A stretch of 31,618 bases of DNA from Candidatus Micrarchaeota archaeon (GCA_018304385.1 JAGVWJ010000023.1:1-31618); one strand, 5' to 3'; shown: positions 523-2,910, numbered from the stretch's first letter. Notes: generated from the sequence alone by a model not told the origin. Numbers and translations: made by a program.

Positions 523-2064
523 ATGCAGAAGTTGTTTGAAAATACTAATGGAAGATCAAAGAGTGAGCATAAATTAACTAGTTCTGTTAAAAGATTTTTT
601 GCTTGTGCATTTGCTGGTTTAGCACTATTAGCATCTCCAATGCTTGCACATCAAGCGCGCGCTCAGCCACCACCAAGCGCAGAGATAGGCGCGCATTCTT
701 TGGAAGGCACAAAAGTAACTCTTAAAAATGGAAAACAAAAAGAAGAGGTCTATTTCTGTGCTCATTCTATAAATAGAGAGTGTGTATTAAATGTTAATGG
801 ACCTGCAGAAGTCACTGTTTTTTATTATCCTATAATTCCCAAGGTTTCTTTTAAAACATCTGGCCCAATACGTATTTCATATTCACTAGATGGAACTAAT
901 TTTGATCAAGATGCCCAAACCGAGCTCTCAACTCTTAGAACAACAGATATTGATTTGGATAAAAGTTTAGGCATAGGAGTTCCAATTGAGATTTCATTTA
1001 CTGCTTTAGAAGGTTCACATAAATTTATTGTTCTGACGCCAAAGGGTTTCTTAAAGGTAAGCAATGTTAGCGAACAAATTCCAATGCCAGATTTAGTCCC
1101 ACTTCCTCCGCCAGAAGTTGCTGCACGGCTAGATGCGCCACCTAATGAAACTTCGAAAGGTTCAGCAGGAGATAGCACCACCACCCAAGGTGTTTCACTT
1201 ACTGCAAAAACAGAAAAACCAAAAGAATTAGATCGACCCGTAGTTAGCCTAGAGTCTGATATTTTGCGCTTTGATGGCATTGGAGAGAATAATAATGCGG
1301 GCCACGTTGGAAATTTAGACATTGTTGGTAAATTATCTTTTGATGATCGCTTCGGGCTTCTCTTAGGGGCTTATGTAAAAATATATCGCTTAGCACTTGA
1401 TAAAAATAATCATGAAACAGATGTTGATTTAACCTCAGTTGGAGTACTAGTTGGTCCATCATTTGTCCTTAAACCAGGAAGCGTATTTTCTGTTATGTTA
1501 TTGGGCGGTACACAATCAACTGGTACTGATGTAAACACAAATGAAGAGTTACAAGGTACTACTGTTGATCGTAAAATGCCCATAGAAGTAGGTTTAAGAT
1601 TACAATATGATTCTAGTTTATTGCAGGCCATGCTTGAGGCAACTACTAACCCAATAAATCCAGGTACGCTTAGATTAGTCCATAATGCAGAATATGTCAC
1701 TCTACCTACTGGGACTCATCCAAAACTCGACCTGGATATGCGATTATTGCATTTACTTAGACCAAATCAAAACGAAACTCCATTAGGTAGTTCTGTTGAT
1801 GATAGAAATGTATATCTAGAGGCACTAGCTGAACTACCATTTACTTATCGCGCAGTTACGGCTAGTTTACTAGGAGGCGGAGAATCTTTGGTTGACGCGA
1901 GTTCTAGATCTACACATGCGTCAGGCCTTGCAGGTCTTGGTTTAGAATTTCATATTTGGAGATTACGTATAGGGGGAAGGGCATTAGTAAATCCAGCTCA
2001 TCTAGAACATCTACCTCGTGCAATGATTACTGCTGAGTTTCTTTCTGAGAGAACAGTAGAATAA
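523..2064 (+). CDS. Secreted hypothetical protein: signal peptide, beta-rich N-domain, Pro-rich linker and beta-barrel-like C-terminal half
   Basis: 513-aa ORF; KRFF + hydrophobic stretch + A-R-A cleavage-like site; PMPDLVPLPPPE linker; repeated alternating hydrophobic/polar strands with Gly and aromatics in the C-terminal ~250 aa. Confidence 0.6.
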   Translation: MQKLFENTNGRSKSEHKLTSSVKRFFACAFAGLALLASPMLAHQARAQPPPSAEIGAHSLEGTKVTLKNGKQKEEVYFCAHSINRECVLNVNGPAEVTVFYYPIIPKVSFKTSGPIRISYSLDGTNFDQDAQTELSTLRTTDIDLDKSLGIGVPIEISFTALEGSHKFIVLTPKGFLKVSNVSEQIPMPDLVPLPPPEVAARLDAPPNETSKGSAGDSTTTQGVSLTAKTEKPKELDRPVVSLESDILRFDGIGENNNAGHVGNLDIVGKLSFDDRFGLLLGAYVKIYRLALDKNNHETDVDLTSVGVLVGPSFVLKPGSVFSVMLLGGTQSTGTDVNTNEELQGTTVDRKMPIEVGLRLQYDSSLLQAMLEATTNPINPGTLRLVHNAEYVTLPTGTHPKLDLDMRLLHLLRPNQNETPLGSSVDDRNVYLEALAELPFTYRAVTASLLGGGESLVDASSRSTHASGLAGLGLEFHIWRLRIGGRALVNPAHLEHLPRAMITAEFLSERTVE

Positions 2065-2116
2065 TTTTTTATAAATATTCAATTTTTGTGATTTTTCTTT
2101 TTCGAGATTAAAACCT

Positions 2117-2130
2117 AGCTTTTAAAAGCT
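2117..2130 (+). promoter_or_regulatory. Palindromic TATA-containing element AGCTTTTAAAAGCT upstream of the putative ncRNA
   Basis: Perfect 14-bp palindrome with TTTTAAAA core at 2120-2127, ~25 nt before the structured region starts. Confidence 0.5.
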
Positions 2131-2149
2131 TTCGTTTCTAATATACTTC

Positions 2150-2410
2150 CCTTCGTTGTGGGAACGAAGCAGATAAGATAATTTTTCTTATCCGGAAGTT
2201 GGGTAAACCATGTAGGATGAATGGTGCGAGAAAATTCCTAAGAAAATTAGGAGGTTTGTAACATTTTGCAAAGCTCAATAAAGTTGCACGCTTGGACCGC
2301 TTGCCTGGCTACATGTATTATATGCTTGGGACAGACGTACCGCAAGGGAAGTCTGATTGGGCACGTAGTGTGTGTGAGTAGGTTGCATGGACCCTAAATA
2401 CTTCCGGATT
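2150..2410 (+). ncRNA. Putative unassigned structured non-coding RNA (~260 nt)
   Basis: ORF-free intergenic stretch, ~43% GC by hand count with G>>C. It has a 10-bp closing helix (2190-2199/2400-2409), nested helices and a CAGAC-GUA-CC-GCAA-GG-GAA-GUCUG hairpin. Confidence 0.65.
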
Positions 2411-2430
2411 AATTCTCATTTTTCTTCAAC

Positions 2431-2910
2431 TTAACCACTAACAAAAATCTTATATCTATCTTCTGACATTTTATGAAGGCCTAGATGTATTGCTAACCTT
2501 ACCTTAAATGTTCCTGAGTTTTCTATATCCGTAATACTTATTGGAACTCCGAATACTTCTGCGCCAGCCCATTCTTTTACTACTTTTACTGGTATAAGCT
2601 CTTGATGGTCTTTTTTTAGTTCAAATATCCCTTCTCCTCTGGTATTTGGACCGGATAAAGATAGTTTAAATAAAACGATATATTTGCATTCTAGCTCAAG
2701 CCAGGTTTGTGGCCGCAAAATTATTGTAAATTCTCCAAACGTTAGCCTTAAGGCTTCACCTATTCTTAATGTTCTTTGCATCATTCTTTTTGTTCCAGTA
2801 CTCCTTTTTTCTACTTGTGGCGGCTCAGTAATAACCCTATTAGCAAGTGCTTTTGCAGGAGGTGTTTTGCTTCCACTAGCCCCACTTCCTTTTATTAACC
2901 TAGACCCCAT
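2431..2910 (-). CDS. Hypothetical protein (159 aa)
   Basis: ATG-started ORF filling the gap between the RNA and dph5, with a low-complexity N-terminus and beta-rich C-terminus; no family recognised. Confidence 0.6.
   Translation of the reverse strand: MGSRLIKGSGASGSKTPPAKALANRVITEPPQVEKRSTGTKRMMQRTLRIGEALRLTFGEFTIILRPQTWLELECKYIVLFKLSLSGPNTRGEGIFELKKDHQELIPVKVVKEWAGAEVFGVPISITDIENSGTFKVRLAIHLGLHKMSEDRYKIFVSG

What the first reader, a model, noticed from the sequence alone, without database searches (positions are those of the whole stretch)
2117..2410. Unassigned ~260-nt structured RNA with its own promoter
Seen in sequence: an ORF-free gap richer in GC than its flanks, G-skewed, starting ~25 nt after a palindromic TTTTAAAA box. 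It folds extensively on the + strand. 5' hairpins are CUUCGUU/AACGAAG (2151-69) and GAUAAGA/UCUUAUC (2172-92). The closing helix is AUCCGGAAGU/ACUUCCGGAU (2190-99/2400-09). Nested pairings are GGGU/ACCC, CCAUGUAG/UUGCAUGG, UUGCACGC/GUGUGUGA and UGCCUGG/UUGGGCA. Side hairpins lie at 2235-53 and 2251-76. A terminal junction carries CAGAC-GUA-CC-GCAA-GG-GAA-GUCUG, i.e. a GUA/GAA loop-E/sarcin-like motif under a GNRA loop. Many G-U pairs support the + strand. Knowledge: GUACC-GNRA-GGGAA resembles an LSU rRNA motif. The overall shape (two 5' hairpins, long stem, forked tip) recalls SRP RNA, but the SRP54-binding CAGG/AGCA loop is absent. The RNase P-like GAGAAAAUUCC has a P4-type partner for only 5 bp. 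Inference: a new or extremely divergent archaeal ncRNA, possibly protein-binding or catalytic.
Basis: partly seen in the sequence, partly recalled or inferred. Interest (0 to 1): 0.8.

Follow-up and report, generated by a model that had tools for sequence, protein, structure and literature searches.

The report
Gene for an abundant circular RNA
This is a real, previously undescribed RNA gene of one family of tiny Micrarchaeota (DPANN) archaea; the tRNA-splicing enzymes cut its transcript and seal it into a tightly folded ring of about 251 bases, whose function is unknown.

Summary
The structured RNA is real, but it is neither SRP RNA nor RNase P RNA. Both of those, and 5S, 16S and 23S rRNA, lie elsewhere in this genome. 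No Rfam family matches it, even at E=10.

[quoted passage not shown] Metatranscriptomes from three different studies each hold one 281-nt contig. That contig matches 2206-2395 without a mismatch and joins 2395 back to 2206, inside the two bulges. This is a closed ring of about 251 nt.

The RNA contigs and a public DNA contig both carry 61 nt at position 2253 that this assembly lacks. All relatives have that segment.

Homologues occur in 19 of 99 genomes (10 of 23 genera) of one Micrarchaeota family, and in 0 of 123 other genomes of the phylum. In a 22-sequence alignment, 49 of 66 base pairs show compensatory changes. The outer BHB helix covaries between genera.

Function is unknown. The most likely role is a stable folded RNA that binds protein. 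The scan has already noted analogous stand-alone circular RNA genes in Asgard and Bathyarchaeia genomes. No homology between those and this one has been shown.

The parts
2108..2127 (+). Archaeal promoter: A-rich BRE-like stretch and TATA-like box TTTTAAAA (2120-2127)
   Evidence: Aligned TATA-like boxes (TTTAAA, TTTATAAA, ATATAAA) preceded by an A-run in 12 homologues, about 25 nt before the leader hairpin. The transcription start was not mapped.
2148..2169 (+). Leader hairpin 1 (UUCCCUUCG...GAAGG type), part of the discarded 5' leader
   Evidence: Predicted in the MFE fold. Stem and sequence are kept in most genera, with a variable loop of 2-12 nt.
2172..2192 (+). Leader hairpin 2 (GAUAAGA/UCUUAUC), lineage-specific
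   Evidence: Present in genus g1 and a few others, absent in G005, G004 and G015.
2190..2199 (+). Outer helix of the BHB motif, 5' strand (AUCCGGAAGU)
   Evidence: Pairs with 2400-2409. In relatives the outer helix is 10-15 bp of entirely different sequence and abuts the central helix.
2201..2204 (+). Central 4-bp helix of the BHB, 5' strand (GGGU)
   Evidence: Pairs with ACCC 2391-2394. Nearly invariant across 22 copies.
2205..2207 (+). 5' three-nucleotide bulge (AAA) holding the 5' cut site
   Evidence: The head-to-tail joint of the RNA contigs falls here (2206, with 2 ambiguous letters). A 3-nt bulge is present in all 21 copies tabulated.
2207..2396 (+). Segment that becomes the ring: 190 nt in this assembly, 251 nt in the natural gene
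   Evidence: 281-nt contigs in three metatranscriptomes cover exactly 2206-2395 plus 60-61 extra nt, with 0 mismatches, and join 2395 to 2206. The full-length covariance model R2 matches 2199-2399.
2208..2214 (+). Inner helix P2, 5' strand (CCAUGUA), pairs with 2384-2390. In the ring it is capped by the ligation loop ACCCUA|AA
   Evidence: Covariation, e.g. A-U, G-C, U-A and C-G at one pair. The circular consensus fold keeps it.
2237..2251 (+). Small hairpin of arm A (CCUAAG-AAAA-UUAGG) after an A-rich bulge
   Evidence: Covarying hairpin in all homologues.
2253..2254 (+). Site where this assembly lacks 61 nt: the 3' strand of arm A, a linker, and the 5' strands of arm B, including the conserved GCCUCUG...UUGUYCCAGG
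   Evidence: The segment is present in all 21 homologues, in the 13,277-nt DNA contig of run X1, and in all three RNA contigs. It is not found elsewhere in G000.
2254..2298 (+). Remaining 3' half of arm B (loop GGNNUUGUAAC, 3' strands of helices B3-B0)
   Evidence: Helices 143-146/251-254 and 158-173/214-229 of A7: all 18 pairs covary. An extra enclosing helix of 6-9 bp is present in 22 of 22 copies.
2303..2383 (+). Arm C: long irregular hairpin with a structured internal loop (GUA/GAA here) and a GNRA tetraloop (GCAA, 2342-2345)
   Evidence: Helices 7-10 of A7, with 19 of 29 pairs covarying. The tetraloop is GCAA, GCGA, GUGA or GUAA throughout.
2391..2394 (+). Central 4-bp helix of the BHB, 3' strand (ACCC)
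2395..2397 (+). 3' three-nucleotide bulge (UAA) holding the 3' cut site
   Evidence: The joint of the RNA contigs lies at 2395, with 2 ambiguous letters. The bulge is exactly 3 nt in about 14 of 21 copies.
2400..2409 (+). Outer helix of the BHB, 3' strand (ACUUCCGGAU), part of the discarded trailer
2419..2426 (+). T-run (TTTTTCTT), likely archaeal transcription stop
   Evidence: Read from the sequence. T-rich stretches follow the trailer in relatives. This is an inference.

Best explanation
Window 2108-2426 is a stand-alone gene for a circular non-coding RNA.

**Proposed pathway**
1. A BRE/TATA promoter drives a precursor of about 330 nt (about 270 nt as assembled here).
2. The 5' leader and 3' trailer pair into a processing stem. 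The stem contains a canonical bulge-helix-bulge motif: a 10-bp outer helix, the 4-bp helix GGGU/ACCC, the 3-nt bulges AAA and UAA, and an inner helix.
3. The archaeal splicing endonuclease cuts in both bulges.
4. The RtcB ligase joins the two new ends. This releases a covalently closed ring of about 251 nt, and the leader and trailer are discarded.

**The ring**
- It folds into four helical arms around a central junction.
- It carries an invariant ligation loop (ACCCUAAA), an A-rich bulge, a conserved GNRA tetraloop above a structured internal loop, and conserved single-stranded blocks.

**What is shown and what is inferred**
- Shown: the gene, its conservation, the fold, the BHB, the head-to-tail joint in environmental RNA, and the enzymes' genes.
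- Inferred: that the ring, not a re-opened linear form, is the working molecule.
- Inferred: that it acts as a compact, exonuclease-resistant folded RNA that binds protein (an RNP scaffold or, less likely, a catalyst), rather than as a guide, an mRNA or a cis-regulator.
For: **Circular product**
- Runs X14, X15 and X17 are metatranscriptomes of three different studies.
- Each has one contig of exactly 281 nt (= 251 + k-1) that matches 2206-2253 and 2253-2395 with 0 mismatches.
- Each contig joins 2395 to 2206 ('goes back 190', 2 ambiguous letters), inside the two predicted bulges.
- The DNA contig of run X1 runs linearly through the locus, so the joint is a feature of the RNA.
- The k-mer depth of the ring contig is 971 in a 96-Mb run. 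This is only a rough indicator of abundance.

**BHB motif**
- It is canonical in about 14 of 21 copies and relaxed in the rest.
- Outer-helix sequences are unrelated between genera but always complementary.
- The BHB definition and the EndA/RtcB pathway follow PMC4731332.
- Genes for EndA (399-aa and 167-aa ORFs) and RtcB are present in G000.
- A broad-specificity three-unit EndA is known from Micrarchaeota (PMC3239211, PMC3488258, listed).

**Structure**
- 88.7% of cells are paired and 49 of 66 pairs show compensatory changes. Slid controls give 29-40% paired.
- An extra helix is present in 22 of 22 copies.
- The full-length homologue folds with z = -4.9.

**Own promoter:**

**Not a known RNA**
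- No Rfam hit.
- RNase P RNA, SRP RNA, 5S, 16S and 23S rRNA are all found elsewhere.

**Ring size** is held at 250-264 nt in 20 of 21 copies.
Against: - No function-bearing evidence exists: no partner protein, no target, no phenotype.
- Contigs cannot give the ratio of circular to linear forms. They also cannot exclude that the ring is an intermediate.
- The runs come from environmental communities. The match is exact (0 mismatches), but the organism's identity in them is inferred.
- The family is patchy: found in 10 of 23 genera and in 0 of 40 genomes of the largest genus. It is therefore dispensable, or replaced, in close relatives.
- About a third of the copies have relaxed BHBs.
- The assembled G000 copy lacks 61 conserved nt. 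If that deletion is real in some cells, they carry a crippled gene.
Confidence: 0.8

Rival explanations
1. The ring is only a processing intermediate, as with circular pre-16S and pre-23S rRNA. It would be re-opened elsewhere to give a linear, possibly permuted, mature RNA.
For: Archaeal pre-rRNAs pass through BHB-made rings, and permuted mature forms exist (abstracts of PMC7758197 and 10.64898/2026.03.23.713588). Contigs cannot show molecule ends (tool note).
Against: In three studies the assembly closes on itself, and the ring contig shows no competing loose end (tables 5, 7, 8). The ligation loop ACCCUA|AA is among the most conserved parts of the molecule. That fits a function in the joined state.
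Confidence: 0.1
2. It is an intron-like insert. The working product would be the ligated leader plus trailer ('exons'), and the ring a stable by-product.
For: The chemistry is the same as tRNA intron excision. Leader hairpin 1 has a conserved sequence in many genera.
Against: The leader and trailer vary in length and sequence, and hairpin 2 is often missing. The 'intron' is the conserved, covarying part. The flanks contain no tRNA or Rfam family.
Confidence: 0.05
3. It is a highly divergent or circularly permuted SRP RNA, RNase P RNA or rRNA fragment.
For: The size of 250-300 nt and the precedent of the permuted circular SRP RNA of Thermoproteus (PMC4731332). The GUACC-GNRA-GGGAA tip resembles LSU and loop-E motifs.
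Against: - RNase P RNA with all conserved regions is at C40.
- SRP RNA helix 8 is on C12.
- Congeners hold both an SRP RNA and this RNA.
- 5S, 16S and 23S rRNA are complete elsewhere.
- No partial Rfam hit appears at E<=10, even on naturally tandem copies where a permuted order would be contiguous.
- The loop-E-like tip is not conserved across the family.
Confidence: 0.02
4. It is a cis-acting part of a neighbouring mRNA: a 3' UTR element of the DUF192 gene, or a leader of the next gene.
For: The DUF192 gene lies directly upstream on the same strand in 7 genera.
Against: - It has its own conserved TATA box between DUF192 and the RNA.
- In G000 a 513-aa ORF separates the two.
- Copies in genera g2 and g16 have other neighbours.
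- The downstream gene differs, or is on the opposite strand.
- The excised ring is the form recovered from RNA.
Confidence: 0.02
5. It is a selfish or mobile RNA element, viroid-like or a free-standing mobile BHB intron, rather than a cellular gene.
For: A circular RNA, with a patchy distribution and two copies in some genomes.
Against: - It is DNA-encoded, usually as a single copy, at a syntenic chromosomal site (DUF192 - RNA - dph5) across genera.
- No self-cleaving ribozyme family was detected.
- The covariation pattern is that of a vertically inherited gene.
Confidence: 0.02

Closest known systems
Circular, BHB-processed SRP RNA of Thermoproteus tenax / T. uzoniensis (Plagens et al. 2015, PMC4731332)
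   Same: A stand-alone RNA gene with a TATA promoter. A short leader and a trailer fold into a BHB, which is cut by the tRNA-splicing endonuclease and joined by RtcB. The result is a stable circular structured RNA of a few hundred nt.
   Different: That ring is a permuted copy of a universal RNA with known partners (SRP19, SRP54). This ring matches no known family, and the genome has a separate SRP RNA.
Circular pre-16S / pre-23S rRNA intermediates of Archaea (BHB in the processing stem)
   Same: A long leader-trailer processing stem with a BHB, and the same enzymes.
   Different: Those rings are intermediates of rRNA maturation. Here the ring shows no similarity to rRNA, and it is the only form recovered from RNA data.
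Excised BHB introns of archaeal tRNA/rRNA genes and metazoan tricRNAs (PMC4536317)
   Same: The same cut-and-join chemistry. The excised part accumulates as a ring.
   Different: There is no host tRNA or rRNA gene around it. The excised part, not the flanks, is the conserved and structured part.
Large bacterial structured RNAs of unknown function (OLE, ROOL, GOLLD, raiA; from my own knowledge)
   Same: Several hundred nt, multi-arm tertiary-looking folds with GNRA loops and A-rich bulges, a narrow lineage distribution, high abundance, and no known function at discovery.
   Different: Those are linear and bacterial or phage-borne, and none matches here (Rfam).
Stand-alone BHB circular-RNA genes noted earlier by this scan in Heimdall/Loki Asgard archaea, Bathyarchaeia and other archaea (e1-5592650, e1-5554462, e1-5637316, e1-5578587, e1-5640024)
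   Same: Own gene, BHB closing stem, rings of about 246-310 nt, no Rfam family, and several seen in metatranscriptomes.
   Different: Different phyla. No sequence similarity was found by the word look-up. Homology with this family is untested.

Membership tests
BHB-dependent circular RNAs of Archaea (substrates of EndA + RtcB) | A central 4-bp helix flanked by two 3-nt bulges on opposite strands, set between two helices | tested here: met
   2190-99/2400-09 outer helix, 2201-04/2391-94 central helix, bulges 2205-07 and 2395-97, inner helix 2208-14/2384-90. In G000 one U.U mismatch or one extra nucleotide sits next to the 3' bulge. The motif is fully canonical in G001, G005, G009, G015 and others.
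BHB-dependent circular RNAs of Archaea (substrates of EndA + RtcB) | The motif is kept in evolution although the flanking helix sequence changes | tested here: met
   The outer helix is 10-15 bp of unrelated sequences in different genera, always complementary and abutting the central helix.
BHB-dependent circular RNAs of Archaea (substrates of EndA + RtcB) | A head-to-tail junction in RNA located in the bulges | tested here: met
   The joint 2395 to 2206 (+/-2 nt) appears in contigs of three metatranscriptome studies. The DNA contig is linear there.
BHB-dependent circular RNAs of Archaea (substrates of EndA + RtcB) | The genome encodes the splicing endonuclease and the RtcB ligase | tested here: met
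   PF01974 at 83.9 and 36.8 bits. PF01139 at 339 bits.
BHB-dependent circular RNAs of Archaea (substrates of EndA + RtcB) | Cleavage by the enzyme in vitro, and RNase R resistance | not testable with these tools
   Needs bench work.
Archaeal SRP RNA (RF01857) | A match to the covariance model; helix 8 with the SRP54-binding loops (GNAR loop, AGCA/GGUCA-type internal loops) | tested here: not met
   No match at E<=10. The helix-8 motif GGUGAGGUC-GAAA-GAAGCAGCC is on contig C12 instead. G001 and G002 have both RNAs.
Archaeal RNase P RNA (RF00373) | A match to the model; conserved regions CR-I to CR-V forming P4 | tested here: not met
   No match here. A 206-nt RNase P RNA with GAGGAA..., ACAGAAACGA, UGAAACG and ACAGAAG is at C40:14199-14404.
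rRNA fragment (5S, SSU, LSU) | A local match to an rRNA covariance model | tested here: not met
   No match at E<=10. Complete 5S, 16S and 23S rRNA genes are elsewhere.
tRNA or rRNA intron | The flanks form a tRNA or rRNA | tested here: not met
   ARAGORN finds nothing at 1900-2700. Rfam finds nothing.
Viroid-like / obelisk-like RNA replicon | No DNA copy; a self-cleaving ribozyme or a replicase ORF | tested here: not met
   It is encoded in chromosomal DNA at a syntenic site. No ribozyme family was detected.

The most novel reading that the evidence does not exclude
The 251-nt ring is the RNA subunit of a so far unknown ribonucleoprotein or ribozyme of Micrarchaeota. It would be one member of a wider, unrecognised class of dedicated archaeal genes (also seen by this scan in Asgard and Bathyarchaeia) whose only product is a large, tertiary-folded circular RNA made by the tRNA-splicing machinery.
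Probability: 0.25. Interest if true: 0.85.

Novelty: new variant of a known kind. Interest (0 to 1): 0.72.

Why it matters
Archaeal circular RNAs made at BHB motifs are known as introns, as rRNA intermediates, and as one permuted SRP RNA.

This case is a dedicated, promoter-driven gene. Its conserved product is a large, intricately folded ring of no known family, and the ring was recovered as RNA from three independent environmental studies.

- It gives DPANN archaea a fourth large structured RNA beside rRNA, SRP RNA and RNase P RNA.
- It is compact, with GNRA, A-rich-bulge and multi-arm features typical of ribozymes and RNP scaffolds.
- Together with analogous genes noted by this scan in other phyla, it suggests that stand-alone circular RNA genes are a general but overlooked feature of Archaea.
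- It is a practical warning for annotation. The gene is invisible to Rfam, and the assembly carries a 61-nt gap in it.

Tried and rejected
**Database and family searches**
- Rfam at gathering and at E<=10 on the window, on 5 + 5 homologous loci and on naturally tandem copies gave nothing relevant.
- SRP RNA, RNase P RNA, 5S and rRNA identity is rejected because all are elsewhere.
- tRNA-like reading: ARAGORN finds nothing.

**Function leads**
- Guide RNA for rRNA: the longest perfect complementarity of the ring to the organism's own 16S, 23S and 5S rRNA is 10 nt. That is no better than shuffles.
- Telomerase-template look of the ligation loop (CCCUAAACC): the genome has no TTTAGGG arrays, and the 9-mer occurs at chance frequency. 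This is coincidence.
- Coding: the 43-aa ORF 2266-2397 ends in the 3' bulge. It is interrupted in the closest relative, as read from the alignment.
- C/D and H/ACA boxes or a K-turn: none is conserved, by reading the alignments.

**Partners and structure**
- Partner gene by neighbourhood: DUF192 is adjacent in 7 genera but not in g2 or g16. The neighbours in g2 are unrelated housekeeping genes.
- Pseudoknots by a covariation scan of unpaired columns: only clade noise.

**Distribution and the missing segment**
- A second copy of the missing 61 nt in G000: none found.
- A diverged homologue downstream of DUF192 in genera g19 and g13: none with filters off.

**Literature:** no paper on this RNA was found.

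**Caveat on the read data**
- The RNA contigs give no cover over the leader, the trailer or the flanking genes.
Only the joint is used.

Full report
**What is there**

The region 2117-2410 is richer in GC (0.47) and G-skewed (+0.24) compared with flanks at 0.30-0.35. The genome as a whole is 36.5% GC. The + strand folds to -85.3 kcal/mol (z = -3.7, 0 of 200 shuffles as good). The - strand gives z = -1.6. Rfam 15 gives no match at the gathering thresholds or at E<=10.

**Not one of the housekeeping RNAs**

The window is contig C52 of a 1.53-Mb, 89% complete genome. Its closest dph5 relatives are titled Candidatus Micrarchaeota. The other structured RNAs of the genome are found as follows.

| RNA | Place in G000 |
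|---|---|
| RNase P RNA, 206 nt, with all conserved regions | C40:14199-14404, beside the SRP54 gene |
| 5S rRNA | C7 |
| 16S rRNA | C3 |
| 23S rRNA | C21 |
| SRP RNA | C12 (see below) |

RF01857 misses the SRP RNA in G000. The congener's SRP RNA (71.7 bits) has a homologue on C12, whose helix-8 SRP54 site is recognisable. Congeners G001 and G002 carry both an SRP RNA and the present element at different loci. The SRP and RNase P leads are therefore refuted.

**A conserved gene**

- BLAST found homologues in relatives.
- A first covariance model, R1, of the 3' domain extended this set.
- A full-length model, R2, found matches in 19 of 99 genomes of the organism's own family and in 10 of 23 genera.
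- R2 found none in 123 genomes of other families of the phylum.
- It found none in the 40 genomes of the largest genus of the family. This also holds at the syntenic site with filters off.
- Genus g2 often has two copies, once in tandem.

On the 22-sequence alignment A7, 88.7% of cells pair and 49 of 66 pairs show compensatory changes. With the partners slid by 1-3 columns, 29-40% pair. A further helix of 6-9 bp that encloses arm B is present in all 22 copies with different sequences. A TATA-like box preceded by an A-run aligns about 25 nt upstream of the leader in 12 homologues.

The ancestral context is DUF192 - RNA - dph5 - HD. In G000 a 513-aa ORF is inserted between DUF192 and the RNA. 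In g2 the neighbours are unrelated housekeeping genes.

**The key result: a ring**

I laid public runs on 1900-2700. Three metatranscriptomes from three different studies each contain one contig of exactly 281 nt.

- The contig matches 2206-2253 and 2253-2395 without a mismatch.
- It joins 2395 back to 2206, with two ambiguous letters.
- A de Bruijn contig of a circular molecule has length N+k-1, so N = 251.
- The DNA contig of run X1 passes linearly through the same place.

The joint lies exactly in the two 3-nt bulges of a bulge-helix-bulge motif:

| Part of the motif | Sequence | Coordinates |
|---|---|---|
| Outer helix | AUCCGGAAGU / ACUUCCGGAU | 2190-99 / 2400-09 |
| Central helix | GGGU / ACCC | 2201-04 / 2391-94 |
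| Bulges | AAA and UAA | 2205-07 and 2395-97 |
| Inner helix | CCAUGUA / UGCAUGG | 2208-14 / 2384-90 |

This is the substrate of the archaeal splicing endonuclease. Its products are joined by RtcB (definition and pathway as described in PMC4731332).

Across 21 copies the motif is canonical in about 14 and relaxed in the rest. The outer helix is 10-15 bp of unrelated sequence in different genera, and the predicted ring is 250-264 nt in all but one copy. G000 encodes EndA (399-aa and 167-aa ORFs) and RtcB. A three-unit, broad-specificity EndA has been described in Micrarchaeota (PMC3239211, PMC3488258). Whether the 399-aa ORF is of that type was not tested.

**The assembly gap**

- All relatives have about 61 nt at 2253 that G000 lacks.
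- The three RNA contigs and the 13,277-nt DNA contig of run X1 carry that segment in an otherwise identical sequence.
- Nothing like it lies elsewhere in G000.
- The window's copy is therefore an assembly error or a rare allele. The natural gene is full-length.

**Architecture of the ring**

- Helix P2 is capped by the invariant ligation loop ACCCUA|AA.
- Arm A has an A-rich bulge and a small covarying hairpin.
- Arm B consists of four stacked helices, with conserved unpaired GCCUCUG and UUGUYCCAGG blocks and a large loop, A-GGG-UUGUAAC.
- Arm C is a long hairpin ending in a conserved GNRA tetraloop above a structured internal loop. That loop is GUA/GAA in some genera and of the UAA/GA type in others.

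**Function**

Nothing tested points to a target.

- There is no complementarity to the organism's own rRNAs beyond chance.
- There are no conserved guide-RNA boxes and no conserved ORF.
- There is no constant neighbour.
- There are no telomere-like repeats to go with the template-like loop.

The mix of a closed backbone, a constant size, a GNRA loop, an A-rich bulge and invariant single-stranded blocks is what compact, protein-binding or catalytic RNAs look like. I therefore take 'stable folded RNP RNA' as the most likely role, as an inference only.

**Comparison and novelty**

The mechanism of maturation is that of the circular SRP RNA of Thermoproteus (PMC4731332), and of pre-rRNA rings and BHB introns. 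The RNA itself belongs to no described family. I found no paper on it.

This scan has earlier noted analogous stand-alone BHB ring genes of about 246-310 nt in Asgard, Bathyarchaeia and other archaea. I could not test homology with them.

I rate this finding a new variant of a known kind, with interest 0.72.

Noticed in passing
window 2253/2254: The assembly lacks 61 nt of the RNA gene. A public DNA contig and three RNA contigs of otherwise identical sequence contain them. This is an assembly error or a minor allele.
   Followed up: partly
G000:C40:14199-14404 (L001:1501-1706, minus strand): The RNase P RNA is only 206 nt (69 bits, below the Rfam cut-off of 84). P12 and the P15-17 region are almost deleted and one of the P8/P9 hairpins is missing. 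It lies next to the SRP54 gene.
   Followed up: partly
G000:C12:67791-67953 (L043:1417-1502) and L035:1501-1761: The SRP RNAs of this family score below the Rfam cut-off and lack helix 6 (40 model positions are absent in G001). No SRP19 gene (PF01922) is found in G000. Helix 6, which is the SRP19 site (from my own knowledge), and SRP19 may therefore have been lost together. G000's copy seems shorter still and is missed by RF01857.
   Followed up: partly
G000:C3:28629-30393 and G000:C21:7217-11999: The 16S gene spans 1765 nt and the 23S gene spans 4783 nt, against models of 1533 and 2987 positions. Both probably carry large insertions or introns.
   Followed up: no
window 523-2064 (+): This 513-aa ORF has no Pfam hit and is inserted between DUF192 and the RNA gene. 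No homologue of it appeared in the syntenic loci of the relatives that were checked. Another first-reader note calls it beta-barrel-like.
   Followed up: partly
window 2431-2910 (-): A 159-aa ORF converges on the RNA gene. It has no Pfam hit and no homologue in the relatives' loci. In G001 a different ORF, on the same strand as the RNA, fills this gap.
   Followed up: no
L106:1150-1424 and 1501-1772 (G003); L102/L108 (G041); L103/L107 (G150): Genus g2 carries two paralogous copies of the ring gene per genome, once as a tandem pair. Each copy has its own canonical BHB.
   Followed up: partly
L100:1501-1825 (G078): One homologue has two insertions, about 60 nt in total, in arm A and in the arm B loop. 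They give a predicted ring of 314 nt.
   Followed up: no
tables 7 and 8 (runs X14, X15, X17): The same metatranscriptomes also hold lower-depth contigs of diverged homologues of the ring (4-8 mismatches per 35-55 nt). Related species therefore express their versions too.
   Followed up: no
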